Positions 20,263 through 52,368 of a stretch of 64,000 nt of DNA are shown piece by piece. A model generated the notes under the pieces. It had not been told where the DNA came from and ran no database searches. It saw only the letters and a program-made list of their open reading frames with translations. Numbering within the stretch: the first letter of the stretch is position 1; each line of letters starts with the position of its first letter. The position numbers and the translations under genes were made by a program. The stretch lies in IMG/VR virus record IMGVR_UViG_3300016457_001349. One strand, written 5' to 3'. This stretch comes from an uncultured virus (IMG/VR IMGVR_UViG_3300016457_001349) (lineage: Duplodnaviria; Heunggongvirae; Uroviricota; Caudoviricetes).

Positions 20263-20646
20263 ATGAATGAAAGATATTATACATCAAAACTGGTTAAGAA
20301 ATTGAAAGAAGGCGGCTCCTTTGCTTATAAGGTACCAGATCTCAGTACTGGCATAAAGCCTTTTGATATATTCTGTGTTAATAATGGCGTGCCACTTGCA
20401 ATCGAATGCAAGATGAAAAAGGTAAAATCAATTAAAAATCCAACTCGCTACCTAACTAAGCACCAGGAAGCCTTTTTAGAACAATTTGAAAAGGCTGGTG
20501 GCACTTCTCTGATTTGCTTTTTCTCTTACGGCGGGGAAATCGAGATTTTTGATTTAAAGGGAAAGCTTAGGGCGGATTGGTTGAAAAGTCTCCAGTTGCG
20601 CCCCAAAAGGCCAGGACCCAGAAAAGTTCAGCCTCTTGAGAACTAG
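20263..20646 (+). CDS. Holliday junction resolvase-like PD-(D/E)XK nuclease (RecU/Hjc/VRR-NUC-like)
   Basis: KPFDIF...AIECK...HQEAFL...AGG. Confidence 0.78.
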   Translation: MNERYYTSKLVKKLKEGGSFAYKVPDLSTGIKPFDIFCVNNGVPLAIECKMKKVKSIKNPTRYLTKHQEAFLEQFEKAGGTSLICFFSYGGEIEIFDLKGKLRADWLKSLQLRPKRPGPRKVQPLEN

Positions 20647-21121
20647 AACCACCTTTTCTTAAGATCCATCTTTTGGTTCCATCTTCAATTCCATCATAGT
20701 TGATTCCTATATGGAAATCAAGTTCCTCTAGCTCATGGGACAGAGTAGAAAAATCAGCAACCTTGCTTCCCATTGGTGTTCCTTCAAAGTAGGCATAAAA
20801 GGTGCTTTTCTCGGACCAATTCCAACTCTGTGCACAAACATATACATGGAAGGTGGCGAGGCTACCTAACCTTCTGACTTCCTCCCTATCAAATTCAAGG
20901 GCCAAACCGAATTCCAGTGAACCGGTCCATCCATCAGCCAACTCCATAGGTGAAGTAGAACTTCCAACATAGGCCATTCTAGGGAAAAAATTTAGATATT
21001 CTCTTAAAAATTCTAAATTATTATTAAGTCTTCTGACCCAATCATAGTCTAATGCATCATTGATCCTAGGATTAAGTAAAGAAGTTGACCAACGGCACCA
21101 TTCAGACATTTGTTCCTCCAT
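20567..21121 (-). CDS. Putative tail-tip/fibre protein
   Basis: End of the tail module; shares the N-terminal W..R...N..FL motif with the two upstream genes. Confidence 0.55.
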   Translation of the reverse strand: MEEQMSEWCRWSTSLLNPRINDALDYDWVRRLNNNLEFLREYLNFFPRMAYVGSSTSPMELADGWTGSLEFGLALEFDREEVRRLGSLATFHVYVCAQSWNWSEKSTFYAYFEGTPMGSKVADFSTLSHELEELDFHIGINYDGIEDGTKRWILRKGGSSSQEAELFWVLAFWGATGDFSTNPP

Positions 21122-21632
21122 AATATTCTATACTGAGACGCGAAAAGTATGAGGTTGCATCATAGTTAGCCACGCTGGCGCAAACCTCTATTTTATTTAA
21201 ACCTACTAAAAAATCCTCGGTTGGAATCTGATAAGAAGGATAAGAAATTGGTGAATAATTTAAGGGATCGTAAAGAAAAAACGATCCAGCCGCGGTTCCG
21301 TTCAAGGTTAACCAGGTCATTACCTTTCTATGAGGTGCTGAGAATGATTTGTTGATCCCATACTTAATTTGAATGTGCCCACCCCATTCAAACACCGATT
21401 CTGGAAGATATATTTGAAGAGGTTGATATACAGTTCCATCATTTAGCCCTCTTAAAACGCTTCGAAGTATTGCGCCATTAAAAATAGGAAAATGGGTTAT
21501 ATTAAAAGTATATTTTAGGTAGCCTAAATTTTCAACTAATCTACTACCCCAGGAATATGAAATTTCCTTGTGGGGCGAGACTATTATCCCTTGAGGGTTA
21601 TACGAAGCATCTGAAAAGTCTAAGTATTTCAT
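21102..21632 (-). CDS. Putative tail-tip/fibre protein
   Basis: ISYSWGSRLVENLGYL motif shared with neighbours. Confidence 0.55.
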   Translation of the reverse strand: MKYLDFSDASYNPQGIIVSPHKEISYSWGSRLVENLGYLKYTFNITHFPIFNGAILRSVLRGLNDGTVYQPLQIYLPESVFEWGGHIQIKYGINKSFSAPHRKVMTWLTLNGTAAGSFFLYDPLNYSPISYPSYQIPTEDFLVGLNKIEVCASVANYDATSYFSRLSIEYYGGTNV

Positions 21633-22207
21633 TCAAAGGGCCCTCCTATAAAGGAATATAAATAACTCAAGGTAGCTTGACGATTAGCATCATAGCTTCC
21701 TTCATAATACCTTAAATATGCCCTCAGAATTTTCTCAGTTCCTGTGAAATTTTCGTCGAGAAAATTATAAAGATTGAAGCCAGTATTTATATCGTTGTCC
21801 TTCCACCCTGAAAGATCGGCCGGAAAATATTCAAGAATCTGGGTAGCTGCGTTTGTACCCCAAACAGTTGGATAGGAAGGCGAGGAACTAACAATTAGGG
21901 ATAAAGTGGCACCTTTTATATTATAAATTTTAAGCTTACCCTTGAAATTTAAATGCGAATAACAACCTCTTAGATAGAGCACTCTCCTGTTAATTGGCAT
22001 TGAAACATAGCCAAAACAACAAGGATTAGAGTTCATTCGCCTAGTTCTTTCACAATTAAATGGAATCGGCATAGAGATTCCTTGTCTTACCATCCAAACT
22101 ATATTTTTTTCAATTCGTTTGCCCCAATTAAGGTCCAAATAATCTTCATCCTCGGGTACAATGCCTACTGAAGCAAAATGCGCTCTGAAAAAGTTTTCAT
22201 CTTTCAT
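21629..22207 (-). CDS. Putative tail-tip/fibre protein
   Basis: LDLNWGKRIEKNIVWM motif shared with neighbours. Confidence 0.55.
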   Translation of the reverse strand: MKDENFFRAHFASVGIVPEDEDYLDLNWGKRIEKNIVWMVRQGISMPIPFNCERTRRMNSNPCCFGYVSMPINRRVLYLRGCYSHLNFKGKLKIYNIKGATLSLIVSSSPSYPTVWGTNAATQILEYFPADLSGWKDNDINTGFNLYNFLDENFTGTEKILRAYLRYYEGSYDANRQATLSYLYSFIGGPFE

Positions 22208-24955
22208 TTAGAAAAACCTCGTTATTGAACCAAATTCAAAATTAAAACAGGTTGCTGCGCCTTGTTCCCATGTAATTTTATATAAGGATGCCATAGATGA
22301 AAGAGTTGAAATTGTTCCAACAGCACCTCTATCAACGTACAAAATAGCCTCGCCGACAGTTGTACTTTTAACTCTTTCAACTCTTAAAATTTCAGGGAAC
22401 TTATACGAATCTCCAGCCTTGCTTGCATAGATAAAGTCATCCTTTTGAACCCAATCAACCGTTCCGGTAGCCCCATAAGAGGTGGCATGAATTTGGTTAT
22501 CAAACAAATTTGCATTCTTTTCATTTAAGTTAATCAGCAGTAGATCACTTGAAGATGTTGCTATTGCCCATCCACTCAGAGAGGTTGAGCTAACATCTCT
22601 TTCCACTAGCTCAGTACCGTTCCAACTTCCCTCCTCGAAATAACCGATTCCCTTCTCGGTATAAAACTGAAAATCCATCAAAGAGTAAGAAAATATACCC
22701 TTTTCAAAATCTTTATGGTAGCCCAAAACCACATAAGTTCCACTCAAGGAGGCTTTTGGATATTCAACTATACCTAATTCACCTAATTTGATTCTCAATT
22801 TAGTTGCCGTAGTAATCTCCAACTCATTGGTAAGAAAGGAATTCTCTAATATTTCTCTTTCGACCCAGGTTTCACCCTCAGCAAAATCTTTTATCCATTC
22901 CGCCTTGGTTTTTCTTGAAGAATGGAAATCGTTGAAAGCGGTAGCCGCACTTCCTTTTACAATTACATTTTTGAACTTTTTTGTTTTAAAGGATAGTTCT
23001 TCTTTGGTTAAAATATTACTTAGACTTCTTGAGCGACTAATAGATTCTAAGTTGGTTGCATTAAGGGAAAATGATAGCTTTCGAAAGGGACGAATAGCAA
23101 AGAAGGAAATTTGATTTTTCTCATTAATGAAAAATGAGATCCGTCCTTCTTGACAAATTCTATTAAGAAGATCTGATACATTTTCCCCCACAAAAGTATT
23201 TCTAATTTGGAATGTTTGAGATTCAGTTGCCATTTCAAAAGAGTATCTATCAAAATCATCCTCTGACAATGGCAAATAAAAGTTAGATCCCATAAAAAAT
23301 TTTTTGATAATCTCAGCAGGCTTTCCAGCAAGTTCAATGCCTTTTCTCATATAAAGAAAATCATCCTCTTTGACCTCATCTGGAAAATCTTTCAAAAATA
23401 GTGTAGCGGCTAAATTTTCTTTAACAAAGGTGCCACCTTCAATTTTATAAATAGGAAATGGATCTAAGGAGCTGCCCCCGCTAGTGCCTTCGAAATAAAC
23501 AGAGGCGAATTTAACTATATCACCTTGAAATAAAGCATCGAAAGTCCCTTTGAAAAGGTTTTCCCACAAGGGCCGAATCACACTATAAAAATATCTTTCT
23601 GTTTCCTGAGGATATTTAAACCTAGATGGAACTATGTCGGTTTCAGTCCAGTTGAGCATCGTCCAACCCTTTAGAGTATCAGCCCCCTTAGCATAAAAAT
23701 AAAAATGGGGAAAAATAATCCTATTAGCTGGTTTTAAGAAAACCTTGTTCTTAAAAGTAAATTTTACTCTATTTCCGCTTTTACCCTCGCCCTCCGAAAG
23801 ACAGGCAAAATCATATCGGATCGGGCTTAGTGAAAGATTTCTACCCTTGTCTGCTAATTGAATCTGAGTTACACCGTTTTGGAACTTAAGTTGTCTAATG
23901 TTTCCTTGATAGATTATTTCATTTTGAAGATTGTCACAGCACAAACCTCTCATTATATGAAGGCCGGGATAGGTATAATGGGTTGCAACCAAGCTTAAAT
24001 CATCTTTATCTACTACGTAATAAGAATGTCCACTAGGAAAACCAATATAAAGAAACTCCGGATCACAATCAATTCCATCCTCACAATCGGAGTAAACCGT
24101 GCTTTGGACCAAGCTAAGATCGGACTGTTTCCGCTTTATGATAGTACCGTTGTATAAAGAATAATATAAAAAGTTTTCATCTCCAGTAATATAATAAGGT
24201 GCAACACTTTCTTCAATACTTCCTATATTAGATAAGGTCAAGCTATCAAAAAGACTAATTTTATCTGAAGGCCAATATTCACAAAGGAATAAAGTACCAC
24301 TTGAATTAACCCACAAACCCCGACCAGAGAAAGCCGTTGTAGAGACATTAGAGCCACAAAGCTCTTTTTCGTGAGAATATTTGAAAACCCCATAAAGACT
24401 ACCTTTCTTGGCACTAAAATAAAAATAGGATCTATCAATAGCAATTCCCTGGATTTCTGAATAGCCTTCGCCGTCCAAAAGCTTTTCTTTAAACTCAAGA
24501 GAGTTTTTGTCATATTTTAAAATATAGTTCCAATTTGCGATATATAAATCATCTTCAAAAATTTTCATTTGGAAGCATTGAGTAGAGGTTTCTAGCTTAG
24601 AACTTCCCTCGATGCTATCAAAATCTTTGGCCGTCTTCCAAAGCGTCGAGAACCCATCGTGGATAAAGAGGGCATTCTGATAATCACACATCAGTCTAAT
24701 TTCTTTATTTTCAAGAGCATTCTCATTCCAGCTCCCTAGAATTTCCCCGTCATCTGCAAAGGTAAGGGCTAAATTAGAAACTGGAATTTTACCGTCCCAC
24801 AGAGTAAAAGATTTCCTAATAGGAGGTATGCCCTTTAAATTTCTAGAATGAAAATCAACCCAAGTGGCTTCGGTAGAGCCTTCCTTTATTTCTACTCTAT
24901 AACAGAGTGTGGAAAATTCATTCATTCCATTCCTCGAATTTAAAATCAAAATCAA
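22208..24955 (-). CDS. Large tail/baseplate hub protein with inserted beta-propeller-like region
   Basis: Follows a Dit-like gene; LLNRICQEGRISFFINEKNQI hub-like motif; YWTD/NHL-like repeats (GIAIDRSYFY, ITGDENFLYY, IDCDPEFLY). Confidence 0.65.
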   Translation of the reverse strand: MILILNSRNGMNEFSTLCYRVEIKEGSTEATWVDFHSRNLKGIPPIRKSFTLWDGKIPVSNLALTFADDGEILGSWNENALENKEIRLMCDYQNALFIHDGFSTLWKTAKDFDSIEGSSKLETSTQCFQMKIFEDDLYIANWNYILKYDKNSLEFKEKLLDGEGYSEIQGIAIDRSYFYFSAKKGSLYGVFKYSHEKELCGSNVSTTAFSGRGLWVNSSGTLFLCEYWPSDKISLFDSLTLSNIGSIEESVAPYYITGDENFLYYSLYNGTIIKRKQSDLSLVQSTVYSDCEDGIDCDPEFLYIGFPSGHSYYVVDKDDLSLVATHYTYPGLHIMRGLCCDNLQNEIIYQGNIRQLKFQNGVTQIQLADKGRNLSLSPIRYDFACLSEGEGKSGNRVKFTFKNKVFLKPANRIIFPHFYFYAKGADTLKGWTMLNWTETDIVPSRFKYPQETERYFYSVIRPLWENLFKGTFDALFQGDIVKFASVYFEGTSGGSSLDPFPIYKIEGGTFVKENLAATLFLKDFPDEVKEDDFLYMRKGIELAGKPAEIIKKFFMGSNFYLPLSEDDFDRYSFEMATESQTFQIRNTFVGENVSDLLNRICQEGRISFFINEKNQISFFAIRPFRKLSFSLNATNLESISRSRSLSNILTKEELSFKTKKFKNVIVKGSAATAFNDFHSSRKTKAEWIKDFAEGETWVEREILENSFLTNELEITTATKLRIKLGELGIVEYPKASLSGTYVVLGYHKDFEKGIFSYSLMDFQFYTEKGIGYFEEGSWNGTELVERDVSSTSLSGWAIATSSSDLLLINLNEKNANLFDNQIHATSYGATGTVDWVQKDDFIYASKAGDSYKFPEILRVERVKSTTVGEAILYVDRGAVGTISTLSSMASLYKITWEQGAATCFNFEFGSITRFF

Positions 24956-25304
24956 ATAAATCTTTCATCTTCTCAGGCGGAAGAAAACTTCTTTCCGTGA
25001 AAACACAAGTAGCAGTTCCAGTAACATCATCAAAAGTCCATAGAAAAAGAAAAGGGAGATTCGATTCGGCTATCATCTTAAAGGTTGCTGCGCAGTCGGG
25101 TGAAACAGCCCGAAAATGCAATCGCCAATGTTTTTTTCGCCATATTTCATGGCTAAAAACCTTTCCAGTCAGACTCCTGCGAATTTCCCTCCGAAGTTCA
25201 ATGGATTCTTCCCATGGGTAACCAGGGAAGTCGAACCAGGGTATATCATATTGAACATCCCCGCCAAAAGGGGTATTATCCATACGTATTGTCCAATCAC
25301 CCAT
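24918..25304 (-). CDS. Distal tail (Dit)-like protein
   Basis: ~128 aa; RSLTGK, W.L.F and a C-terminal FDFKFEE typical of minor tail proteins; position fits. Confidence 0.55.
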   Translation of the reverse strand: MGDWTIRMDNTPFGGDVQYDIPWFDFPGYPWEESIELRREIRRSLTGKVFSHEIWRKKHWRLHFRAVSPDCAATFKMIAESNLPFLFLWTFDDVTGTATCVFTERSFLPPEKMKDLFDFDFKFEEWNE

Positions 25305-25307
25305 CGC

Positions 25308-25898
25308 TTACCTCAATGCAATTAGAAATGAAAGAAAAAATCTTGGACTATCATATTTAAAAGGAATCAAATTATACTCAAAACCTAATAAAAAGTTCCA
25401 TCCATAAGGTCGGAAACCAAACCCCACTAGAAGCCCCTTTCTTTGCACGAGCGCATGAAGTCCAAATTGATTCCAATATAAAAACCTAATTCCAACCTCG
25501 GGCTCTAAATTAGAAGCAATTCCAATTAAGGGTTTCATGCACAAACCTTTATTTTTTATTATGAATTTAAATTGATTGCTTTTCTTATCATAAGTAAGAA
25601 ATACCTTACCCTCGGCTGGAATTTTCTTTCTTTTTATCTGAATTGAATCTTGAATACTAATTTCAGAAATCGTAGTTTTTTCAATTTTTAGGATTTTATT
25701 TGAGTTCAGTTTTTTAGCTAATCGCTTGATTTCTTTCTTTTCTGGTTCTTTTTTAATGATTTTGTTGATTTTTGTAATCTGATTGAAAGTCTTGACTTCT
25801 GGCTCGTGCAAAAACTTTAAAATTCCGATATAAATCAAACCTAGTAAAATCAAATAAAAACAAATCTTTGAAACAAGTTTTTTCATTTTTAACTCCAA
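25308..25898 (-). CDS. Membrane-anchored protein (spanin-like candidate)
   Basis: N-terminal TM segment, Lys-rich stalk, beta-rich hydrophobic C-terminus. Likely start MKKLVSK. Confidence 0.45.
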   Translation of the reverse strand: MELKMKKLVSKICFYLILLGLIYIGILKFLHEPEVKTFNQITKINKIIKKEPEKKEIKRLAKKLNSNKILKIEKTTISEISIQDSIQIKRKKIPAEGKVFLTYDKKSNQFKFIIKNKGLCMKPLIGIASNLEPEVGIRFLYWNQFGLHALVQRKGLLVGFGFRPYGWNFLLGFEYNLIPFKYDSPRFFLSFLIALR

Positions 25899-27346
25899 AG
25901 TGGAAACATAAATTGAATATATCGCCTACTCTTGTTAGCTGGAATACTTTCCCCGGAAGCAATGGGGTACCATGGTGCCGAACTTCCAAAAACGGAATCG
26001 TTACCTATTGGAAAATCATAATTTTGCCATGGGCTTCCATTAGAATTCCACATTGGGGGATATTCTGAAGTTCTATAAAAGAATTTTCGGGTTCCATCTA
26101 TTATTGAACCAACGGTTGAATTTGAAATTTCAGTAGCACCCCATGAAAAAGAGGTTGCGATCCAGTTCTCACCCAAATCAATAACACCAGAAATAAAAGA
26201 ACCAAATTCGCTATAAAGGGGATAAGTTCCTTTAAGTTGAACAACCTCGGTTGCCCCCGTTCCATTGATAGCAGTCTCAAAAAGGCAGCTAGCACTTGAG
26301 GCTTCAGGACCGAACATATCCCAGTTAATGCTCATCTCGTACGAGCCGACCTGAAAGAAAGTTTCAGTCCCGGGGGCTTCAATCGTAGCAAGATGAAGAT
26401 TTCTATATCCAGAAAAATCGCCTCTAACTCTTCGGCCATATTTTCCAAAGCTACCCCAAACATTCTCGAGGGGCTTAGAATCATTCCAAGTACTTGTTTT
26501 ATATTTTTGAATGCCACCGTACCATCCGGAACCAAAAATATATAAATCTTTGTATCTATCAATGGCTGCCGACAGAAAAACTTTATTCAAATATTTTCCC
26601 TTCAAGATCCCAGTAATAGAACCAGAGGAGCGCCAAATTCTAAAACCAGCGGTTGCATTCTCAATTTTTCCATTTGGAACATACAAAGTACCGCAGGTCG
26701 AAATAGCGATTTCCTCATTCCAGTTGATTTGACGAGACCAAAGAACAGAAAAATCAGTCAAATTTCTCCGCCTGAGATATTTTGTGCCATTTTGTAATTC
26801 CTCTGTAATTAATGCTCCATCATAATCATCATAAACATCTTGAAACTCAGAATTGGAGGCCATAAATATCTTAAAAGGTTGGGTGGGACTAGAAACGAGA
26901 GAAAGGGCAACTTTAGACCCACCAGAAATTAGAAGAGTGGCTGAGTTGGAAAAAAGTTTCAAACCAGAAACGGTGGCAAGTGTAGAGATATTGTAAATTT
27001 GAACCGTACCATTCGGATCGACTCTACAAAATCTGGAACCATCATGTTCACGCCCCCAAATGGAACCCCAGAAATCAACTTCAACTGGATAAAACTTGCC
27101 CGTTATACTAATATGGGTAGAATCGCCATTTACAAGATTTTTTTGAACCCAGACATCGGTATCTGTTCTTTTATAATATACGTAACTAGCGTTGAAATCA
27201 ACGGCAGCACCAAAATATTCGCCCCAGTATTCTTCACCAGAAGACCAATGGACACTTCCATCAATTGCAAATCTTTCGAACCAACCTTCCTCTCTCTCGT
27301 ACTGATATTGATAAAAACCGTAAACTCCAAAAGAACCTATTTGCAT
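25889..27346 (-). CDS. Virion tail appendage: beta-propeller-like N-terminus + shared C-terminal module
   Basis: C-terminal GSFISGVIDLG...DGTRKFFYRTS...RYIQFMFP shared with 27348..28781 and 50548..52368. Confidence 0.6.
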   Translation of the reverse strand: MQIGSFGVYGFYQYQYEREEGWFERFAIDGSVHWSSGEEYWGEYFGAAVDFNASYVYYKRTDTDVWVQKNLVNGDSTHISITGKFYPVEVDFWGSIWGREHDGSRFCRVDPNGTVQIYNISTLATVSGLKLFSNSATLLISGGSKVALSLVSSPTQPFKIFMASNSEFQDVYDDYDGALITEELQNGTKYLRRRNLTDFSVLWSRQINWNEEIAISTCGTLYVPNGKIENATAGFRIWRSSGSITGILKGKYLNKVFLSAAIDRYKDLYIFGSGWYGGIQKYKTSTWNDSKPLENVWGSFGKYGRRVRGDFSGYRNLHLATIEAPGTETFFQVGSYEMSINWDMFGPEASSASCLFETAINGTGATEVVQLKGTYPLYSEFGSFISGVIDLGENWIATSFSWGATEISNSTVGSIIDGTRKFFYRTSEYPPMWNSNGSPWQNYDFPIGNDSVFGSSAPWYPIASGESIPANKSRRYIQFMFPLWS

Positions 27347-27347
27347 T

Positions 27348-40216: not shown

Positions 40217-40573
40217 TTAGCTAACAGGAACGACAAAAAGAATTACAGAATCGTAACTGGAATAATCATTGGCGGAATGAACCACACCTTTAGTCCCGGT
40301 AGAATGTATGGTATAGCCAGAAACCGCATTAAGGTTAACAGCAGTGCCTCCATTTAACTTGGCCGCTAACCCTCCTAGCACTATATCATCTGTGGAAAGA
40401 ATATTCCCAGAAGTTATAGTACCATACTTAGTCCCACCAGCTACACCAACGGAATAGATTCCGCTTAAACCATTTTCAATCTCATCTATAACAGTCCCGA
40501 GGCCGAAGCCACTTGGACCTTCATTCCAACCAAATCGTTCATCTAATTCAGAAGGATCAAATTGAAAAGCCAT
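40217..40573 (-). CDS. Putative capsid decoration protein
   Basis: Small Gly/Ser/Thr-rich gene directly after the major capsid gene and before the terminator. Confidence 0.6.
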   Translation of the reverse strand: MAFQFDPSELDERFGWNEGPSGFGLGTVIDEIENGLSGIYSVGVAGGTKYGTITSGNILSTDDIVLGGLAAKLNGGTAVNLNAVSGYTIHSTGTKGVVHSANDYSSYDSVILFVVPVS

Positions 40574-45366: not shown

Positions 45367-45578
45367 TTTAAGGCTCCTTGACTATTTTTTCTTTTTCTAA
45401 TTCTTTCTTGAAAGTGTTCACAGGGTTTGAAATCGTTATTTTTAAAAATTTTGTTTGGAAACTTTAAACAGGCAAAATCATTAAGCCATTTTAAACCAGC
45501 ACTTTGAAAATGGATACAATCCCAACAGGTTTTCTCACTCATTTTTTCCTCCTTTTTTTTAAGCATTATCAAAATCAT
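45363..45578 (-). CDS. Small Cys-rich protein
   Basis: CWDCIHF...C...CEHF. Confidence 0.6.
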   Translation of the reverse strand: MILIMLKKKEEKMSEKTCWDCIHFQSAGLKWLNDFACLKFPNKIFKNNDFKPCEHFQERIRKRKNSQGALK

Positions 45579-45897
45579 CGAAAACTACTATCTTTAAAGA
45601 GTTTTCTGTTGGTGCGGTAAGTATGCCGCCAGACATCTCAATTTCAAATTCCCCCCAATAAATTCCAGACTTTCTAAGATCGCCTGAATTCCAATTATAT
45701 TCAACGGTTCCATTCGAATCTAAAATGGTAGCCATTGAAGCTAGATAAAGGGAATTAGTTTGATTCTCTCTTAAATGAAAGAAAACCGTAGCATGAGTTC
45801 CAAAATTAACAACTTCACCTGTATCTGAATATTTTATAACAGCTCTAAGCGCTGGTAAGGTATCGTGTCTTTTATATTTAAGAATAGTCATTTTCAA
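45559..45897 (-). CDS. BppU N-terminal-like Ig-fold virion protein
   Basis: KRHDTLPAL...GTVEYNW..GD...GIYWGEFE. Confidence 0.7.
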   Translation of the reverse strand: MKMTILKYKRHDTLPALRAVIKYSDTGEVVNFGTHATVFFHLRENQTNSLYLASMATILDSNGTVEYNWNSGDLRKSGIYWGEFEIEMSGGILTAPTENSLKIVVFDDFDNA

Positions 45898-46063
45898 TAC
45901 CCGCTATAAAAATTTCTACTATTTTCTTGGTTATATATAATGGGATGAGACTCAATATTGAGGGTGGGATATGATAAATTCTAGATAAAAATCCCTTTGA
46001 GACCAATGGTAAGCCTCGTCCTTTTCTTAAAATTCCTTTTGTAACTATTGAAATGGCTTTCAT
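45878..46063 (-). CDS. Hypothetical protein
   Basis: Tight packing; SIVTKG motif. Confidence 0.5.
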   Translation of the reverse strand: MKAISIVTKGILRKGRGLPLVSKGFLSRIYHIPPSILSLIPLYITKKIVEIFIAGIENDYS

Positions 46064-46638
46064 TAAACCCTCGTTACTTGATAGTGAATACAGTTTCCAT
46101 TATCATAAGTTGCCGACATGTGATACTCGGCAATTTCATTTTGATCCAATTCAAGATCGTCCTTGTTTTCATATATTCTTATTTTACATGAAGTAAGATA
46201 ATTATTATCATATTGTTGGTCATAAATTTTAAAATTTTCTTGCGTCAACCCTAGAACTCTTTTTGTCATAGAACCAAGAACGTCTAGAGAATCAGAAATC
46301 TCGAAAATTTTCTTTTTTGATTGATCTAAAAATAATGTTTCAACACTTATAGTCTCCATGCCATTATAAAGCGCCCGAAAAAGAAGCGTATATTGAGCCG
46401 ATGGTAAAGTTCCAACGTAAATTGAGGTTCCAAAGAACCCTTTTATATTAAACTGTTTTTCTAGCGTAAAGGTTCCATTATTTCCTAATGCTGGGTCTGG
46501 AAATAAAGTTCCAGAATTTTGATCCAATTTAAAAAAATATGCCCAGGCCGAATCTGGCTCGACCGGCTCGCCATTTGAATTTGTAATTCCAATTGATACA
46601 TTGATATAATTTATTCCTTCTCTTACTTCAGCTATCAT
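46063..46638 (-). CDS. Putative virion structural protein
   Basis: Ig-like N-terminus, RVLGLTQEN motif, GT-rich. Confidence 0.55.
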   Translation of the reverse strand: MIAEVREGINYINVSIGITNSNGEPVEPDSAWAYFFKLDQNSGTLFPDPALGNNGTFTLEKQFNIKGFFGTSIYVGTLPSAQYTLLFRALYNGMETISVETLFLDQSKKKIFEISDSLDVLGSMTKRVLGLTQENFKIYDQQYDNNYLTSCKIRIYENKDDLELDQNEIAEYHMSATYDNGNCIHYQVTRV

Positions 46639-46840
46639 TTGAAAAAGTTCCTTGAAGTTCTATTACTTTTGGACAAGAAAGATCACAGTAGCCTTCGGTA
46701 AATCTAAATGGAATTAAAAAATCATCAGAGGTTTTTAGCATAACACAATTAGAAGCTGAAATCGAACCTAAAAGTAAAATTTCACTCTCTTCTATGATAT
46801 AAATTTCTTGATTATGATAGGGACAGAAAACTTTTCTCAT
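46628..46840 (-). CDS. Small Cys-containing hypothetical protein
   Basis: CPYH...C...CDLSCP; tight packing. Confidence 0.5.
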   Translation of the reverse strand: MRKVFCPYHNQEIYIIEESEILLLGSISASNCVMLKTSDDFLIPFRFTEGYCDLSCPKVIELQGTFSNDS

Positions 46841-47358
46841 TACACCTTTTCCTCTATCTTAATATCATCAAAACCAATTCTATAACTATCGCTTGAGTGT
46901 CGGCATCTAAATCCTACGCATCCCGAGGCAATGGGATTTTCATCCATGAAATTGGCAATAGTGATCCAGGTACCACTTTCAAGAACATCTATATTAAAAA
47001 GAGAACCACAGGCTGAAAAACGAATTGTATAAGGCGAAGGTGTAAAATGATCATCTAGCATATAATAAATGCAGGTTCCAATGTAATTCTCATAGCGATA
47101 GACCCAGATATAAGCTTTCTCAGAACTTTGTTGTCTAGTCTGTAAGTAGTATCCTCTTTTAAAATCGTTGTCAAAACGGAGAAAGGGTCCGCCTTGGCTC
47201 TGGCTATTATAAAACATACTTAATTGAACTCGGCAGTCCTCTAAGTCGTCTCGCCCTTTCCATTTTGAGTCCGTATTCCCCCATCCTCGGAATCTATGCG
47301 AACCTTCAACTAGAACTACATCATACTTTCCAGTTATTTCCCAATCGGTAGCTGCCAC
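46840..47358 (-). CDS. Concanavalin A/LamG-like beta-sandwich virion protein
   Basis: GYYL, IASGCVGF, IGFDDIKI pattern. Confidence 0.55.
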   Translation of the reverse strand: MAATDWEITGKYDVVLVEGSHRFRGWGNTDSKWKGRDDLEDCRVQLSMFYNSQSQGGPFLRFDNDFKRGYYLQTRQQSSEKAYIWVYRYENYIGTCIYYMLDDHFTPSPYTIRFSACGSLFNIDVLESGTWITIANFMDENPIASGCVGFRCRHSSDSYRIGFDDIKIEEKV

Positions 47359-47374
47359 ATAAACCTCACATTAT

Positions 47375-47725
47375 TTACCATCCACTTTCAAAATCTTCTA
47401 TAAATAAGACATTGAAACTGTCTGAGATAGTCCATCCATTTTCAAAACTTTCAAAAAATAAGGTATTGAAACTGCCTTCAATGGACCAACCACTTTCAAA
47501 ATCCTCTGAAAATATTTCATAAAAACTTCCAGAACCTTCCCAACCACTTTCAAAGTCTTCAAAAAATAAGGTGGAGAAACTTCCCTCAATATTCCATCCG
47601 TTTTCGAAGCTTTCAAGGAATAAGGTAGAAAAACTTCCTGAGATTTTCCATCCCCTCTCAAAGTCCTCAAAGAATCTTTCGTGCCAAAATTTAAATTGAA
47701 GAAGGGGTCCAAAGCGAAACCTCAC
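47375..47725 (-). CDS. 18-aa tandem repeat protein (FxE[DS]FExGW...GSF)
   Basis: Six copies of a 54-bp/18-aa unit, the last one partial. Confidence 0.75.
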   Translation of the reverse strand: MRFRFGPLLQFKFWHERFFEDFERGWKISGSFSTLFLESFENGWNIEGSFSTLFFEDFESGWEGSGSFYEIFSEDFESGWSIEGSFNTLFFESFENGWTISDSFNVLFIEDFESGW

Positions 47726-49959
47726 AAATCTAACTCAATTATGGATTTACGTAATTGTTCCAGGGCTACAAAATCCGCCCTTTGGACATAAAGAGTTACT
47801 AATCTCACAATCTTTCTATATAGATCGCTCTGAAATTTAGAACTAATTGTAACTATTTCAGAAATTGTTTTTAAAACTGAAATTGAAAAATATGCTGATA
47901 GAATTTGAAAATCTTGAATCTTTTTTAATACTTGAATTGAAGGCTGCTCTGACAAATGAATGTTATCATATTTGGAAATGCCTACTATTTTTTGGAGCAG
48001 CTCCTTCAAGAGAAGATTTGTCTCTATATTTTTCTTAAAAAATTTTTCTTGACTCTCAAATTTTATTAAAAGGTCTTCAAAGAAATTTTTTCCAACCAAT
48101 TTATTGACCCAGCCCTGAGTTTCAAGCTGGTCAAATTTGAATAGTTGGCTCCTGGAGCTAAATAAGTCAGATAAGCCTTGCTGCTCAAAATGATTTTTTA
48201 CAACTTGAAAGAAAAACTCTTTTTGCTCCAATAAAAGCGATTCAAATTTTTCAGAGTTAAATTTAAGGCTAGAATCCTCCGCCATTTCAAGGCTTTCAAA
48301 AAAGCTTCGGATCACACCTCTTGTTATCTTAAAAATTTCAGAAATAATTTCCTCATCATATAAGTTCCAGCGAGGCGCTTTAATGGAAAGTTTTTCAGAG
48401 AAATCAATCGGGCTCTCAACAAGAAATTTCCCATTATGAAGACTAGGCCTTTCAAAAAAGCTGAGCGTATCAGAAAGAAATTCTTCCCAAAGCTTTGCTA
48501 AAGTATATTCAAGATTTTCATTTGAGAAGAAATCGGTAAAAAATTCCAAGGTATATTGAAGCGAACCTTCCTTACCAAATATTTTGGTAAATTGACTTGT
48601 ATAAACCTGAAAAATCTCCAAAAAGAATTTTGAAATAGCGGTAGAAATTTGCTCTGAACTGAAAACACTATCAATGGCTTCTTTTTGAAAACTAGCCAAT
48701 AAGTCCGAATATAATGAAAGTGTTTCCCTTAGAACCAAATTTATATTTCCAGAAAAAGAAATTTTATCAAAAATCTTATCTAGACTATCCTGAATAAATT
48801 TACCAAGATCAGAATTTCTAAATTCTGAAAAATCAAGAAAATCTTCTTTGTTCTTACAAAATTGTAATTGAAGTTCATCAAGAAAACTTTGGATTTCATC
48901 GGTTGATCTAGAAATTATTTTAGATGGAAATTCACCAATTAATAGAAAATCTCTTGGTCGAAAAACTGGTAATTTGAAATAAAATCTAGACTCCCAAACT
49001 GGAATAGCAGAATAGAAACCCTTGCCAATTACAAAATTGTAATCGGTCTCTGAAATAGGAATAGACTCAAATTCTTTAAGCTGAGGTTTCATTTGAAAAT
49101 AATCTGAAAAAGTCAGAGCGCCACTTAAGGGAAAGGCAATTTGTTTTTGAAAGTATTCCTTCAACTTTAAGAAATCATGTAGCCCCACCGCCCCAGAAGT
49201 TTGCCAATTAAAAATTTCACTCATTAATAAAATATCGTAAAGCAAAGTCGCCCTTCCCAATTCATATTCAAAAAGATCCTCGAGCGAAAGTAAATCTTTA
49301 GAATATTTAGAAACGGCCCTAAGGATGGATTCGCCGATAGCCTGAGATTCGGGAAAGGTTCGTCTAAATTCAGACAATTTTGAAAACAATTCAGAGGTTT
49401 CCACCAAGTCATAAAGAGAAATAGGAGCAGAAGTTTTTATACTGAAATGCTCGGAAATAAGCAAAGTGTCACTACCTTCTTGAAGCGGTTTCAGTAAAAG
49501 ATCTAGAGCAAATAATACTGGGCTAAAATTGGGAATAGAAAATTCCTCTAAAATCGAAATCAGACTTGAAACTCCTTTCCCGATTTCAAATTTCGAGATT
49601 TTGTCAACAAGCTGAAAGCTATCATCCAAGAAACCGTGTTTTCCTCTTAACGGCAAAATTTCATCGCTAAGAGATAGTATTTCGGAAAACGAGAGGGATA
49701 GACCTAAAAGATCAATAGCCCTTAAGATAGGTGTAAAATTAGGAACATAGCAAGAGAAATCTTCTGAGATATTCATTACTTCAGAAGGGTTTTTGAGGAT
49801 CTTGCTTTGCCTGAATTCGGATAGGGAAACAGAATCCCCAAAAGTTCCATGTTTTCCCCTCAAGGGCTCAATTTGGTCAGAGAGGCTTAGAACTTCATAG
49901 AAATCTTTAGATAAGGATAGAAGATCTATCCCTCTTAATTTCGGGCTATAATTTGCCAT
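47722..49959 (-). CDS. Long repetitive Ser/Glu/Phe/Leu-rich putative fibre protein
   Basis: Recurrent [DE].L.[LI]S[ED] units; duplicated N(Y/F).P.LR.IDLL and PLRGKHG blocks. Confidence 0.6.
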   Translation of the reverse strand: MANYSPKLRGIDLLSLSKDFYEVLSLSDQIEPLRGKHGTFGDSVSLSEFRQSKILKNPSEVMNISEDFSCYVPNFTPILRAIDLLGLSLSFSEILSLSDEILPLRGKHGFLDDSFQLVDKISKFEIGKGVSSLISILEEFSIPNFSPVLFALDLLLKPLQEGSDTLLISEHFSIKTSAPISLYDLVETSELFSKLSEFRRTFPESQAIGESILRAVSKYSKDLLSLEDLFEYELGRATLLYDILLMSEIFNWQTSGAVGLHDFLKLKEYFQKQIAFPLSGALTFSDYFQMKPQLKEFESIPISETDYNFVIGKGFYSAIPVWESRFYFKLPVFRPRDFLLIGEFPSKIISRSTDEIQSFLDELQLQFCKNKEDFLDFSEFRNSDLGKFIQDSLDKIFDKISFSGNINLVLRETLSLYSDLLASFQKEAIDSVFSSEQISTAISKFFLEIFQVYTSQFTKIFGKEGSLQYTLEFFTDFFSNENLEYTLAKLWEEFLSDTLSFFERPSLHNGKFLVESPIDFSEKLSIKAPRWNLYDEEIISEIFKITRGVIRSFFESLEMAEDSSLKFNSEKFESLLLEQKEFFFQVVKNHFEQQGLSDLFSSRSQLFKFDQLETQGWVNKLVGKNFFEDLLIKFESQEKFFKKNIETNLLLKELLQKIVGISKYDNIHLSEQPSIQVLKKIQDFQILSAYFSISVLKTISEIVTISSKFQSDLYRKIVRLVTLYVQRADFVALEQLRKSIIELDL

Positions 49960-49966
49960 CTTTTAA

Positions 49967-50413
49967 TTATGAGCCAAAAGTTAGGGTCCAGTTAATTGTA
50001 AGGGTGTCAGCCGTACCTTTATTAATCTCGGCAAATACTTGACGACACATCATAACCCCGCCCGAGTCAGCGTTAAAAATACCAGCTTCGGTGATAGCAC
50101 CAGTTGCCGTACCAGCACCCCAATCTGCAACATATTTAACCTGGTTTTCATTTGGACTAGGTTGCTGAGTCTTTGAGGTTAAAGGTACGCGGCTAATCTC
50201 AGCTTGAAGGGCAGTATCTGCTGAGGTTGCAGCTTCAGTACCAGTTCCAACGGCCATATACCCCATAGTAGCTTGTCCTTGATCGGACATCTGATCGGCC
50301 ACGTGCTCATTTCCATCGTGAGTTATTACATTGTAAAGGTGCCGTTCTTCTTTTAAGTAACCCAATTCATCCTTTAAGTAAATATCAAGCCAACCTTTAA
50401 TTTTCATTTTCAT
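49967..50413 (-). CDS. Conserved phage structural protein (fibre/collar-associated)
   Basis: NVIT..G, YMAVGTG, DTAL..E..R, ITEAGIFNA..GG, INK...DTL.I.W. Confidence 0.7.
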   Translation of the reverse strand: MKMKIKGWLDIYLKDELGYLKEERHLYNVITHDGNEHVADQMSDQGQATMGYMAVGTGTEAATSADTALQAEISRVPLTSKTQQPSPNENQVKYVADWGAGTATGAITEAGIFNADSGGVMMCRQVFAEINKGTADTLTINWTLTFGS

Positions 50414-50543
50414 TCTCCTTTAATTTCCTAAGTTCATTAAACACTATTTCTTCAAGTTCTTTTATTAAATGATCCCCCTCGGTTTCACCTCCCCTAATTA
50501 ACTTTAGATCGACTTTATCCTCTAATTCTAATGTATAGTTCAT
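50397..50543 (-). CDS. Small hypothetical protein (48 aa)
   Basis: Manual translation MNYTLELEDKVDLKLIRGG...ENEN; fills the intergenic gap. Confidence 0.45.
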   Translation of the reverse strand: MNYTLELEDKVDLKLIRGGETEGDHLIKELEEIVFNELRKLKENENEN

Positions 50544-50547
50544 TTTT

Positions 50548-52368
50548 TTATCCTGCATAAAATGGAATTTTTAGTTGAACATATTTTTTCTTTCTTTCTT
50601 CAGGAATTTGAACTGGCGATACAAGCTCCCAAACATTATAAGGGTCTCCTTTTATTTCAAACTCAAAAACAGAGGCGGCTCGATTAGCGTAACCACCAAA
50701 TCCCATACAAAAAGAGGCCGAGGAATTCTGTAATCCCCATATAAAAGTAGCTTCCTTAGAATCATTAGCCCATTTCCAATATGCGGTAGCAGTTGAGTTT
50801 TTAAATTTAACTTTCACGAAATAGGTGTCTAAATCAGCCCACTTAGTTCCGCTGATATAATCATAAGCACCATTTCCATAATAATATTCAATATCATTAT
50901 TCCAGTAATGAATTCGAATTTGGCCTATTGCATGCCCTCTAAAGGGTTGAAGTACTTGAATCCCATAATTATCAAAATACATTGAGGCAAAATATTGAAA
51001 TTCGTTTCCTGGTTTATATTTCAAGTGTGAAGTCATATACAAATATCCAGTCCCACCAAAGGCGGGCGTTCTTGCAAAACCATCTCCAATCGACCAGTCA
51101 GAGGGTGAGGTAGTACTCCAATTTTCATTGAAAACTGAACCATCAAAGTGTTCAGTAAAGGTTCCTAAAAATTCTTTACCCCAATAATCAGCCATCTCTG
51201 ACGGAAAATCACCAGACTTCCAAGCACTTCCCTCATAATTTAAAGAAGGAGGCTCATCAGAAGATTTTAAATATATTTTCTTCGTTCCATCAATTAAAGT
51301 TCCGATCTTAGAACTAGAACCTTGCCAAGCCTCAATCCTTAAATTGTTTAGTTTTGATGGAAGCTCAATTACACCTGTAACAAAAGAACCAGATAAAACA
51401 TATTCAGTCCCTGAAGTAGCAAGAGTAATATTTTCAGACGAGCCGCTCTCGTGAATTACAGTTTGAAAGGTAGCTTGAGATAAAGGTGAAAAGGTGGAAA
51501 ATGTCAATTGAAAACCAGTACCACCAACTTGAAATAAATTCTCTTCTTTTCCCAAAGAAATATTGCCATCACAATCGGATTTAATAATTTCAGTTCTATC
51601 AATATCTACTATTGCATTGTACATTAAGAATTGAGGCCAAATATTTTCGGTGCCGCCCACTATTCCAAATGGATCTCTTTTAGAACCGTTTACATAATAA
51701 GTACAATACTGATTTTGCAAATCAACTATTGAAGTATTGGTAACTCCGCTCTGATACCAATAATCACCCCAATCGTAATCACCAGTTCCATTTTGAGCCC
51801 GATCGTTATGGACATTTGAATTCCTAACTCCTCGATTCCAGGACGGTCCAAAAGTGGCAACTAAGAAATAATTCCCATTTTGATCCCCAGTTGGCTTCCA
51901 ATAAATTACAAAACGAAAAAGAGCCGATCCGCCTATTGTAAGGTCTAAAGGATCTTCAAATCGCAAGGTAGCATTTTTAACGTATCCAACATGAGCAGCT
52001 CCGCCAATAAGACTCCACTTTCCATCATTATTCCATGCCGTTCCAAATTCTGATCCCTCAAAATCATCAATCCATGTCGAATTTAAGGCGGAAAGTGAGG
52101 GGTTGGTAGCTAAAGTATCTATTTCCTGATTCCCATATTTTAAGAATGCTCTGGAATTCTCTCTTTTTCTAAGTAAAATAAATTCTGAGACCCCAGTTGC
52201 ATCCCACTTTTCAATTTTATATTCTATTGGTTCGCCATAATCATCGAAAAATCTAATGTCTTTTCCATCGGGGTCACAATGAGAATAATCAAAATTTTCA
52301 AGTCTCAGATAGAAAGTTCCAGCTTTAGTAGAATCAAAAGTTAATTCTCTAAAATATTGAAATGCCAT
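50548..52368 (-). CDS. DUF2341-like / ConA-like virion appendage with shared module
   Basis: FDYSHCDPDGKDIRF...YKIEKWD...KYGN (DUF2341-like); DDFEG and EHFDG lectin-like domains; GSFVTGVIEL...DGTKKIYL...KYVQLKIPF. Confidence 0.7.
   Translation of the reverse strand: MAFQYFRELTFDSTKAGTFYLRLENFDYSHCDPDGKDIRFFDDYGEPIEYKIEKWDATGVSEFILLRKRENSRAFLKYGNQEIDTLATNPSLSALNSTWIDDFEGSEFGTAWNNDGKWSLIGGAAHVGYVKNATLRFEDPLDLTIGGSALFRFVIYWKPTGDQNGNYFLVATFGPSWNRGVRNSNVHNDRAQNGTGDYDWGDYWYQSGVTNTSIVDLQNQYCTYYVNGSKRDPFGIVGGTENIWPQFLMYNAIVDIDRTEIIKSDCDGNISLGKEENLFQVGGTGFQLTFSTFSPLSQATFQTVIHESGSSENITLATSGTEYVLSGSFVTGVIELPSKLNNLRIEAWQGSSSKIGTLIDGTKKIYLKSSDEPPSLNYEGSAWKSGDFPSEMADYWGKEFLGTFTEHFDGSVFNENWSTTSPSDWSIGDGFARTPAFGGTGYLYMTSHLKYKPGNEFQYFASMYFDNYGIQVLQPFRGHAIGQIRIHYWNNDIEYYYGNGAYDYISGTKWADLDTYFVKVKFKNSTATAYWKWANDSKEATFIWGLQNSSASFCMGFGGYANRAASVFEFEIKGDPYNVWELVSPVQIPEERKKKYVQLKIPFYAG

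What the first reader, a model, noticed from the sequence alone, without database searches (positions are those of the whole stretch)
20567..52368. Surface virion proteins are enriched in Gly-Ser/Gly-Thr: candidate acceptor motif for phage-encoded O-glycosylation
Seen (hand counts): in 27348..28781 about 21 of ~40 Gly residues are followed by Ser or Thr. The tail tube has about 13 GS/GT (e.g. QGTVIGSAEVGTGTFS, TGSKWGTLLGGTS). The 118-aa decoration protein has 5 GT among its 9 Thr. 25889..27346, 22208..24955, 50548..52368, 45559..46638 and the adaptor show the same bias, along with many AT/AS. The primase, by contrast, has only ~5 among ~38 Gly, and the tape measure and major capsid proteins are not obviously enriched. 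The bias crosses unrelated folds but follows predicted outward exposure. Inference: [G/A]-[S/T] is an acceptor motif for the four glycosyltransferases in the same operon, giving a glycan-coated virion whose sites are written into the protein sequences.
Basis: partly seen in the sequence, partly recalled or inferred. Interest (0 to 1): 0.88.

Follow-up and report, generated by a model that had tools for sequence, protein, structure and literature searches.

The report
Gly-Thr-rich tail proteins beside glycosyltransferase cassette
The outer tail proteins of this uncultivated phage and its relatives carry far more Gly-Thr pairs than chance allows, always alongside the same block of sugar-transferring enzymes, so the pairs may mark where sugars are attached to the virus particle, though this is not yet shown.

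Summary
In 18 tail, fibre and adaptor proteins (5,676 aa), A-T, G-T and G-S are the three most over-represented of all 400 dipeptides (z 9.3, 8.8, 5.1). The reverse orders and A-S are not enriched. Codon use at the sites matches the background.

Capsid, portal, tape measure, neck proteins, the glycosyltransferases and non-structural proteins show no bias. Tail proteins of 8 reference phages (O/E 0.85-1.24) and 1,046 ORFs from 78 capsid-related viral loci do not show it either.

The four glycosyltransferase genes form a conserved GT2-GT9-GT2 cassette. In 11 distinct IMG/VR loci it travels with the same adaptor, tube and tape-measure module. In all 7 relatives whose distal tail genes I could read, G-T is again enriched (pooled 238 vs 108, z 12.9, top of 400), across 32-63% GC and mostly in proteins with no detectable homology to the window's.

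The best reading is an acceptor context, G-T more than G-S, for virion O-glycosylation (about 0.45). It is unproven. Cassette and tail module are co-inherited, no cassette-less relative was found, and no exposure data could be obtained. A-T enrichment is specific to this phage.

The parts
39474..40121 (-). GT2 glycosyltransferase, first gene of the cassette (215 aa)
   Evidence: PF00535 E 1.3e-15. Best NCBIfam hit is the SunS peptide S-glycosyltransferase, 50 bits against a cut-off of 350, so sub-threshold. Homologues found in all 11 distinct cassette loci and, as fusion proteins, in 6 capsid-lineage loci.
37844..39445 (-). GT9-like (heptosyltransferase-fold) enzyme of 533 aa with a C-terminal extension
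   Evidence: PF01075 E 1.4e-10. AF2 model pLDDT 78.6. Best PDB folds are 3tov, WaaF 1psw and TibC 4rap. Four Cys (284, 287, 294, 357) are each conserved in 78% of 40 family members. Residues about 300-358 resemble a LuxR-type helical domain. 62 homologues found.
37176..37847 (-). GT2 glycosyltransferase (223 aa)
   Evidence: PF00535 E 4.2e-16. Homologues in L095, L096, L097 and L098.
36403..37164 (-). GT2 glycosyltransferase (253 aa)
   Evidence: PF00535 E 5.1e-09. Homologues in 9 of 11 distinct cassette loci.
40217..40573 (-). 118-aa decoration-like protein directly after the capsid gene; 5 of 9 Thr follow Gly
   Evidence: [GA]T 5 vs 2.0, p 0.02. The family occurs next to GT genes in 6 related loci, but the window's G-T sites are not conserved there.
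35645..36403 (-). 252-aa head-tail adaptor-like protein directly after the cassette; [GA]T 7 vs 1.9
   Evidence: z 4.1. Homologues next to the cassette in 7 loci, each with [GA]T z 1.7-4.5. Atlas leads to Mu gp36 / gp6-like connector families (leads only).
34074..35171 (-). Tail tube protein; 13 G[ST] vs 5.9
   Evidence: Homologues carry PF18906. [GA][ST] dipeptides are kept in 58% of homologue pairs, against a median of 17% over class dipeptides.
20567..28781 (-). Distal tail / baseplate / fibre genes with the strongest bias: 27348-28781, 25889-27346, 24918-25304, 22208-24955, 21629-22207, 21102-21632, 20567-21121. 25308-25898 in this stretch is not biased.
   Evidence: [GA]T 16/4.8, 14/4.7, 3/0.8, 20/6.8, 5/1.0, 4/1.1 and 4/1.3. 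No Pfam or PHROG family. 27348-28781 and 25889-27346 are paralogues.
45559..52368 (-). Second group of biased putative fibre genes near the portal: 50548-52368 (DUF2341 plus the shared C-terminal domain), 49967-50413 (tail-collar fibre N-terminal domain), 46840-47358, 46063-46638, 45559-45897. 47722-49959 here is not biased.
   Evidence: 50548-52368 has [GA]T 19/6.4 (z 5.6); 47722-49959 has 2/1.6.
40591..41826 (-). Major capsid protein, unbiased internal control
   Evidence: PF05065. G[ST] 3 vs 3.7 and [GA]T 3 vs 4.0.
29532..32732 (-). Tape measure protein, unbiased internal control
   Evidence: PHROG 973 and PF20155. [GA]T 5 vs 8.4.

Best explanation
The four late-operon glycosyltransferases (GT2, GT9-like, GT2, GT2) glycosylate virion proteins in the cytoplasm before or during assembly. 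Thr, and less often Ser, directly preceded by Gly is the preferred acceptor context; in this phage Ala also serves. Selection for a dense glycan coat on the outside of the tail (adaptor, tube, baseplate, fibres) and on the decoration protein has therefore enriched G-T pairs in those proteins only.

Shown: the bias, its specificity to these proteins, its absence elsewhere, its recurrence with the cassette, and the folds of the enzymes.

Inferred: that the enzymes act on proteins, that G-T is their acceptor, which enzyme starts the chain, and what the glycan does.
For: 1. The bias is directional, acts at protein level and is very strong. GT, AT and GS are the top 3 of 400 dipeptides, the reverse orders are flat, and codon use matches the background. 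It survives removal of paralogues.
2. It is not generic. Eight reference phage tail sets have G-[ST] O/E 0.85-1.24 and [GA]T 0.92-1.17. Of 1,046 ORFs in 78 capsid-related loci, none reaches z>=5 and 1 reaches z>=4, against 4 and 6 of 69 window ORFs.
3. It recurs with the cassette. All 7 relatives with readable post-tape-measure genes have pooled [GA]T O/E 1.32-2.00, and 5 of them z>=3.6. Pooled G-T is 238 vs 108.1, z 12.9, top of 400. These phages span GC 0.32-0.63, and most of these ORFs have no detectable homology to the window's.
4. Within each genome the bias is confined to adaptor, tube and distal tail proteins. It is absent from tape measure, neck, portal, terminase, the GTs and non-structural genes.
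5. The sites are selected. They are kept in 58% (tube) and 25% (adaptor) of homologue pairs, against medians of 17% and 10%. The window's copies of the shared C-terminal domain hold 8.2-10.7 sites per 100 aa, against 3.0-6.7 in distant homologues.
6. The cassette sits in the late structural operon directly upstream of the biased adaptor and tube genes in 11 distinct loci.
7. The GT9-like enzyme has a GT9 fold, with the protein heptosyltransferase TibC among its top 3 PDB entries, and a conserved Cys4 cluster.
8. Precedent: phage-encoded GTs glycosylate the capsid and tail tube of mycobacteriophages. I saw this only in passages of PMC12363180 and PMC11256854 citing Freeman et al. 2023; the original paper was not readable.
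Against: - There is no direct evidence of any glycan.
- Cassette and tail module are co-inherited and no cassette-less member of the tail lineage was found. The association therefore amounts to one lineage, not independent replicates.
- Over the +-10 kb around the cassette the z distribution is not shifted overall (Mann-Whitney p 0.26). Only its upper tail is (z>=3: 7/160 vs 10/781, p 0.015), and many of those ORFs are tube or adaptor homologues.
- Six cassette loci have pooled O/E 0.78-1.08 in that range.
- The capsid, 47722-49959 and 28778-29530 are not enriched, although at least the capsid is exposed.
- A-T is enriched only in the window (75 vs 77.4 in relatives).
- TibC modifies Ser, not Thr, in an S-G-G / S-A-A context (PMC4358343 passages).
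- The GT9-like enzyme has a helical insert resembling a LuxR-type DNA-binding domain.
- High positional conservation in the tube fits a structural role equally well.
- Glycosylated Che8 and Corndog show no such signature.
Confidence: 0.45

Rival explanations
1. G-T is a lineage-specific structural habit of this tail module, for example a recurrent way of starting or kinking beta-strands. It is inherited and spread by domain shuffling, and it has nothing to do with the neighbouring glycosyltransferases.
For: - All biased phages share one tail module of adaptor, tube and tape measure, so common descent could carry the habit.
- Sites are highly conserved in position in the tube (58%). One G-T (E-G-T-F-[TI]-S-G-V) is conserved even in distant homologues of the C-terminal domain.
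- G-S sites show an alternating hydrophobic pattern typical of strands.
- In the low-confidence tube model about 4 of 13 sites lie in strands.
Against: - The bias extends to many proteins without detectable homology to each other or to the window's.
- It reaches genes in another part of the window (45559-52368) and a decoration protein of a different (capsid) lineage, where relatives have other residues at those positions.
- [GA]T sites have no flanking context such as N-G or D-G turns and no periodic spacing.
- Beta-rich tail proteins of 8 other phages lack the bias.
- Distant homologues of the same domain have half as many sites.
Confidence: 0.28
2. The cassette acts on something other than virion proteins, such as phage DNA bases, a host envelope glycan or a small molecule. 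The dipeptide bias would then have an unrelated, unknown cause.
For: - GT9 enzymes are best known from LPS core synthesis (NCBIfam hits to heptosyltransferases I-III, sub-threshold).
- The GT9-like family carries a helical insert resembling a LuxR-type HTH (E 4e-4 to NarL).
- Phage GTs that hypermodify DNA are known (search listing only, 10.1101/2023.12.21.572611).
Against: - The cassette lies inside the late structural operon between the capsid or decoration gene and the adaptor in all 11 distinct loci, not with the replication genes.
- No hydroxymethylase or TET-type gene was found in the 64-kb window, only N6/N4 methylases. The genome is longer than the window: the tube protein's cluster is recorded on a contig of 78,279 bases.
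- This reading leaves the co-occurring bias unexplained.
Confidence: 0.12
3. Another selective force acts on X-Thr in tail proteins. It could be a different modification of Thr, or avoidance of bulky residues before Thr to escape a host protease or a sensor of tail proteins.
For: Enrichment of G/A before Thr is arithmetically the same as depletion of other residues there. TT, NT, KS and SS are depleted, and ST and GP are depleted in relatives.
Against: No kinase, protease or other modifying enzyme is conserved next to these genes. The only conserved enzymes in the module are the glycosyltransferases.
Confidence: 0.08

Closest known systems
Mycobacteriophage virion glycosylation (Che8, Corndog, Myrna; Freeman et al. 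2023, seen only through passages of citing papers PMC12363180 and PMC11256854)
   Same: Phage-encoded glycosyltransferases reported to glycosylate capsid and tail tube proteins. In Corndog the GT genes gp36-38 lie inside the structural operon just before the capsid gene, as they do here.
   Different: - No sequence similarity between the window's GTs and Corndog gp35-39 (phmmer, nothing at E<=10).
- A different enzyme set, GT2-GT9-GT2.
- Che8 and Corndog tail proteins show no G-[ST] signature (O/E 0.99 and 1.24).
- Here the capsid is not enriched and the tail is.
BAHT family (TibC/AAH) hyper-heptosylation of the autotransporters TibA and AIDA-I
   Same: GT9/GT-B fold, with TibC among the top 3 PDB entries. 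A four-Cys cluster sits in the C-terminal half; TibC has an iron finger of Cys339, 342, 358 and 370 (PMC4358343). One cytoplasmic enzyme places many sugars on a beta-rich surface protein encoded next to it.
   Different: - No sequence-level match to TibC.
- No N-terminal beta-barrel: the model starts directly with the Rossmann lobe.
- Different Cys spacing (CxxC-6-C-62-C).
- TibC modifies Ser, not Thr, in S-G-G / S-A-A contexts. Here the signal is Thr preceded by Gly.
SunS-type GT2 peptide glycosyltransferases (glycocins)
   Same: The best NCBIfam hit of GT2 39474-40121 is TIGR04195 SunS (E 1.7e-13). Related phages fuse this GT2 to TPR repeats.
   Different: The score is 50 bits against a cut-off of 350, and only the generic N-terminal GT-A part aligns. 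It is not a member.
Short bacterial O-glycosylation sequons, e.g. D-[ST]-[ALIVMT] of Bacteroidota (recalled, not checked in a call)
   Same: The idea that a two- or three-residue context marks O-glycosylation sites and can be read from sequence.
   Different: A different motif, a different (periplasmic, lipid-linked) machinery, and cellular rather than viral.

Membership tests
Phage virion glycosylation systems (mycobacteriophage type) | Phage-encoded glycosyltransferases | tested here: met
   Three GT2 genes and one GT9 gene score above the Pfam cut-offs.
Phage virion glycosylation systems (mycobacteriophage type) | GT genes placed among the virion structural genes | tested here: met
   In the window they lie between the decoration gene and the adaptor/tube genes. 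The placement is the same in 11 distinct related loci. Corndog gp36-38 lie before its capsid gene.
Phage virion glycosylation systems (mycobacteriophage type) | Glycans covalently bound to capsid or tail proteins | not testable with these tools
   This needs mass spectrometry or glycan staining.
Phage virion glycosylation systems (mycobacteriophage type) | Homology of the enzymes to Corndog GTs (Che8 GTs not fetched) | tested here: not met
   phmmer of the 4 window GTs against Corndog gp35-39 gave no hit at E<=10. The Che8 GT genes were not fetched.
BAHT (TibC/AAH) protein O-heptosyltransferases | GT9 / GT-B catalytic fold | tested here: met
   PF01075 at 41.4 bits against a cut-off of 22. Foldseek gives 3tov, 1psw and 4rap at E 3e-10 to 2e-9.
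BAHT (TibC/AAH) protein O-heptosyltransferases | [quoted passage not shown] | tested here: not met
   TibC is absent from the sequence and profile searches of the PDB. Structural alignments show 11-12% identity.
BAHT (TibC/AAH) protein O-heptosyltransferases | N-terminal beta-barrel domain | tested here: not met
   The model begins with strand-helix-strand of the Rossmann lobe at residue 9, with pLDDT above 90.
BAHT (TibC/AAH) protein O-heptosyltransferases | Four-Cys iron finger inserted in the C-lobe | tested here: inconclusive
   Cys284, 287, 294 and 357 are each conserved in 78% of 40 sequences. The spacing differs from TibC, and the geometry could not be checked because no coordinates are available.
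BAHT (TibC/AAH) protein O-heptosyltransferases | Acceptor is Ser of a beta-helical autotransporter | tested here: not met
   No autotransporter is present. The enriched residue is Thr preceded by Gly, whereas TibC sites are S-G-G / S-A-A.
LPS heptosyltransferases WaaC/WaaF/WaaQ | Score above the NCBIfam equivalog cut-off | tested here: not met
   Best is TIGR02193 at 32.9 bits against 185.3.
SunS family peptide glycosyltransferases | Score above the TIGR04195 cut-off | tested here: not met
   50.3 bits against 350.

The most novel reading that the evidence does not exclude
A widespread lineage of uncultivated siphophages coats its whole tail exterior, from adaptor and tube to baseplate and fibres, with O-glycans. 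A conserved GT2-GT9-GT2 cassette lays them down, and its minimal sequon, Gly-Thr (and Gly-Ser), has been written by selection into dozens of unrelated proteins. Glycosylation sites, and even the presence of the system, can then be read from genome sequence alone. This would be the first sequon-like signature for a phage, and a second, independent branch of GT9 enzymes that act on proteins rather than LPS.
Probability: 0.4. Interest if true: 0.85.

Novelty: new variant of a known kind. Interest (0 to 1): 0.7.

Why it matters
Virion glycosylation by phage enzymes has been described so far only for a few mycobacteriophages. My four literature searches on phage glycosylation found no phage heptosyltransferase-type cassette and no acceptor motif.

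If G-T marks the sites, this has several consequences:
- Glycosylated phages could be recognised, and their sites predicted, directly in metagenomes.
- A compact four-gene cassette with a two-residue tag would be a candidate tool for glyco-engineering proteins in bacteria.
- A glycan-coated tail would bear on how phages resist proteases, avoid sticking to decoys or meet receptors.

Even if the glycan reading fails, a dipeptide excess this strong needs an explanation. It is the top of 400 dipeptides, is conserved from 32 to 63% GC, and is confined to the outer tail proteins.

Tried and rejected
- **DNA-level motif or codon-pair bias:** rejected. Codon use inside the motif equals the background, and the bias holds from GC 0.32 to 0.63.
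- **Local G/S/T-rich low complexity:** rejected. The reverse dipeptides are flat and TT and SS are depleted.
- **Paralogy or repeats inflating the counts:** partly true. Three proteins share a C-terminal domain, and 47375-47725 is a peptide repeat. The signal survives their removal.
- **Collagen-like or solenoid repeats:** rejected. G-P is depleted, T-G is flat, and the spacing has no periodicity.
- **Extended sequon:** none found. [GA]T sites have no significant flanking preference beyond avoidance of T at +1.
- **GT-less homologues of the tube, adaptor or fibres:** searches of IMG/VR, JGI metagenomes and GTDB genomes gave only identical or cassette-bearing contigs. Two alignments were too divergent to scan with.
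- **Capsid-lineage relatives:** the 78 loci share only head genes and a GT2 with the window. They serve as a baseline, not as homologue controls.
- **Exposure mapping:** the tube model is poor (pLDDT 50.9) and no coordinates are returned, so this stays open.
- **Freeman et al. 2023:** could not be read.
- **Earlier notes of this scan:** none for this genome.
- **Whole genome of the window:** not held.

Full report
**What the window is.**
The window is most of a siphophage-like genome from a metagenome. IMG/VR holds identical fragments. No whole genome is held. The late operon runs on the minus strand in this order:
- terminase 55452-56876 and portal 54164-55444
- putative fibre genes 45559-52368
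- an 860-aa ligase-domain protein, then protease 41841-42782
- capsid 40591-41826 and a 118-aa decoration-like protein 40217-40573
- four glycosyltransferase genes: GT2 39474-40121, GT9-like 37844-39445, GT2 37176-37847, GT2 36403-37164
- a 252-aa adaptor-like protein 35645-36403 and tube 34074-35171
- neck genes, tape measure 29532-32732, and distal tail genes down to 20567

An SLT transglycosylase and an M15 peptidase point to a bacterial host.

I compared each protein with shuffles of itself. G-[ST] is in excess in these proteins:

| Protein | Observed vs expected | z |
|---|---|---|
| 27348-28781 | 21 vs 7.0 | 6.1 |
| 25889-27346 | 20 vs 8.8 | 4.2 |
| 50548-52368 | 19 vs 9.1 | 3.8 |
| 20567-21121 | 7 vs 2.1 | 3.8 |
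| tube 34074-35171 | 13 vs 5.9 | 3.4 |
| 22208-24955 | 20 vs 10.3 | 3.3 |
| 35645-36403 | 8 vs 3.3 | 3.0 |

The primase, tape measure, capsid, portal, terminase and the glycosyltransferases themselves show no excess.

I then pooled 18 tail, fibre and adaptor proteins (5,676 aa) and ranked all 400 dipeptides.
- The top three are A-T (51 vs 16.2, z 9.3), G-T (69 vs 26.9, z 8.8) and G-S (73 vs 42.2, z 5.1).
- A-S is flat (23 vs 24). T-G, S-G and T-A are flat. T-T and S-S are depleted.
- None of this is seen in the other 57 proteins.
- 36% of Thr in the tail set follow Gly or Ala, against 10% elsewhere. Codon use inside the motif equals the background, so the signal is at protein level.
- With one member per paralogue family and without a peptide-repeat protein, G-T stays at 2.54x (z 7.2) and A-T at 2.74x (z 6.3).
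- [GA]T sites have no further sequence context. Their spacing is not periodic.

**It is not ordinary tail-protein composition.**
- Tail, baseplate and fibre proteins of lambda, SPP1, T5, TP901-1, Che8, Corndog, T4 and P2 give G-[ST] O/E 0.85-1.24 and [GA]T 0.92-1.17. Che8 and Corndog are phages reported to be glycosylated.
- I fetched 78 IMG/VR loci whose capsid is 33-51% identical to the window's and scored 1,046 mechanically called ORFs. None reaches z>=5 for [GA]T and one reaches z>=4. In the window 4 and 6 of 69 ORFs do.
- At least 10 of these 78 loci (9 distinct) carry other glycosyltransferases just after the capsid or decoration gene. These are GT2-TPR-GT1 fusions, multi-GT2 proteins, GT9+GT1 or GT1. 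They show no broad bias.
- These loci share only head genes and a GT2 with the window, not its tail proteins. They are a baseline rather than homologue controls.

**The true relatives of the tail module carry the same cassette and the same bias.**
- The GT9-like enzyme has 62 homologues, mostly 380-400 aa and 31-43% identical.
- A scan of IMG/VR with their alignment found 13 further loci, 11 of them distinct.
- In these loci a conserved block recurs: a capsid of another type, a GT2 like 39474, the GT9, one or two more GT2, the adaptor-like protein, the tube, three neck proteins and the tape measure. The window is therefore a mosaic of one head lineage and this tail-plus-cassette lineage.
- Within +-10 kb of the cassette, the adaptor homologues (z 1.7-4.5) and several tube homologues (z about 3) are enriched. 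So are some small Thr-rich proteins next to the cassette.
- The overall z distribution is not shifted against the baseline (Mann-Whitney p 0.26). Only its upper tail is: z>=2 in 21/160 vs 41/781 (p 6e-4), and z>=3 in 7/160 vs 10/781 (p 0.015). Six loci are flat over this range.

I then read further downstream.
- The post-tape-measure gene sets of all 7 relatives that could be read have pooled [GA]T O/E 1.32-2.00 (z 1.5-6.1, five of them >=3.6). T-[GA] is flat and A-S is flat or low.
- Single ORFs reach 22 vs 7.5 (z 5.8), 18 vs 7.3 (z 4.9) and 19 vs 8.0 (z 4.4). Most have no detectable similarity to window proteins.
- Pooled over these 49 ORFs (13,292 aa), G-T is the top dipeptide of 400 (238 vs 108.1, z 12.9). 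G-S follows (129 vs 96.7, z 3.6). A-T is not enriched (75 vs 77.4).
- The phages span GC 0.32 to 0.63.
- Their tape measure, neck, head and non-structural genes are flat.

**The sites are under selection.**
- Among tube homologues (33-43% identical), a [GA][ST] pair is kept as such in 58% of pairwise comparisons. The median over class dipeptides is 17%, and [ST][GA] is kept in 16%. In the adaptor family the figures are 25% against 10%.
- Three window proteins share a C-terminal domain. It holds 8.2-10.7 sites per 100 aa (z 3.9-5.2). More distant homologues from other contexts hold 3.0-6.7 (z -0.5 to 2.0), and one holds 5.6 (z 3.4).
- The decoration protein belongs to a family found next to glycosyltransferase genes in six capsid-lineage loci. 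Those relatives have R-D, S-T or G-N where the window has G-T. The pairs were therefore gained in this genome.

**The enzymes.**
- The GT9-like protein models well over its catalytic part (pLDDT 78.6). It matches GT9 structures, with the protein heptosyltransferase TibC third after a Veillonella GT9 and WaaF.
- The family has four conserved Cys (284, 287, 294, 357). This recalls the four-Cys iron finger that TibC needs for substrate handling (PMC4358343 passages).
- It is not a TibC family member. There is no sequence match, no N-terminal barrel and a different Cys spacing. TibC also modifies Ser in S-G-G / S-A-A contexts, not Thr.
- The family has a helical insert resembling a LuxR-type domain. 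I cannot explain it, and it keeps a DNA-directed role open.
- The first GT2 is closest to SunS peptide glycosyltransferases, but far below the cut-off.
- None of the four resembles the Corndog enzymes.

**Reading.**
The most economical explanation is that the cassette glycosylates the outer tail proteins and the decoration protein. Thr, and less often Ser, after Gly would be the preferred acceptor; in this phage Ala also serves. I put this at about 0.45.

What holds it back:
- There is no glycan evidence.
- Cassette and tail module are co-inherited, and no cassette-less relative was found.
- The capsid is unenriched.
- The high positional conservation in the tube fits a structural role as well.
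- There are no exposure data. The tube model is poor (pLDDT 50.9) and no coordinates are available.

Rivals:
- A lineage-specific structural habit: 0.28.
- A cassette aimed at DNA or host glycans, with the bias unexplained: 0.12.
- Some other pressure on X-Thr: 0.08.

**Novelty.**
Phage virion glycosylation is known from mycobacteriophages. I saw this only in passages of citing papers. My four literature searches on phage glycosylation found no GT9-type cassette in phages and no acceptor signature in phage proteins. If true, this is a new variant of a known kind, and it can be tested directly by co-expression.

Noticed in passing
window 29532-40121 versus 40217-56876; loci L095-L107 and L015-L092: The genome is a mosaic. 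Capsid, protease, portal and terminase belong to one lineage (78 IMG/VR relatives). The GT cassette, adaptor, tube, neck genes and tape measure belong to another, whose members have a different capsid of about 325 aa.
   Followed up: partly
window 37844-39445 (residues about 300-358 and Cys284/287/294/357): The GT9-like enzyme family carries a helical insert that matches LuxR/NarL-type HTH domains (E 4e-4). It also carries a conserved four-Cys cluster. One source names a homologue a CsgD-family regulator. The purpose of both features is unknown.
   Followed up: partly
L020, L046, L062, L085, L016/L017 (genes just after the capsid gene): A family of 118-139-aa decoration-like proteins (alignment A4) is followed within about 1.5 kb by glycosyltransferase genes in every locus long enough to tell. 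These are GT2-TPR, GT2-TPR-GT1 or GT1 genes. This suggests that head decoration and glycosylation are linked in the capsid lineage too.
   Followed up: partly
window 42784-45366: An 860-aa protein with an N-terminal ATP-dependent DNA ligase domain sits inside the structural operon between the fibre genes and the prohead protease. Homologues are in L019, L023, L024, L027 and L059.
   Followed up: no
window 47375-47725: A 116-aa protein made of about six tandem copies of an 18-residue unit of the type GSFSTLF-E-FE-GW. Its G-S count reflects the repeat, not independent sites.
   Followed up: no
window 3-3865: Four tandem paralogous genes (221-349 aa) share an N-terminal E-D-L-D-L-G motif and have no family match. 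Three of them have 30-40% of their few Thr after G/A, which is not significant.
   Followed up: no
window 20567-22207: Three tandem, distantly related genes (176-192 aa, 21-23% identical) at the end of the tail operon share a W-x-x-R-[LI]-x-x-N motif near the N-terminus. All three are [GA]T-enriched.
   Followed up: partly
P0013, P0026, P0133, P0135, L121: Several close or distant homologues of the capsid and of the GT9-like enzyme are labelled by their sources as archaeal MAGs (Altiarchaeales, Hodarchaeales, Thermoplasmata, Heimdallarchaeota). Other capsid homologues are labelled bacterial. The window itself encodes peptidoglycan-directed lysis enzymes, so the archaeal labels may be binning artefacts.
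   Followed up: no
window 62673-63257: A 194-aa protein matches DUF3431 (E 6.5e-13). It lies far from the cassette among early genes.
   Followed up: no
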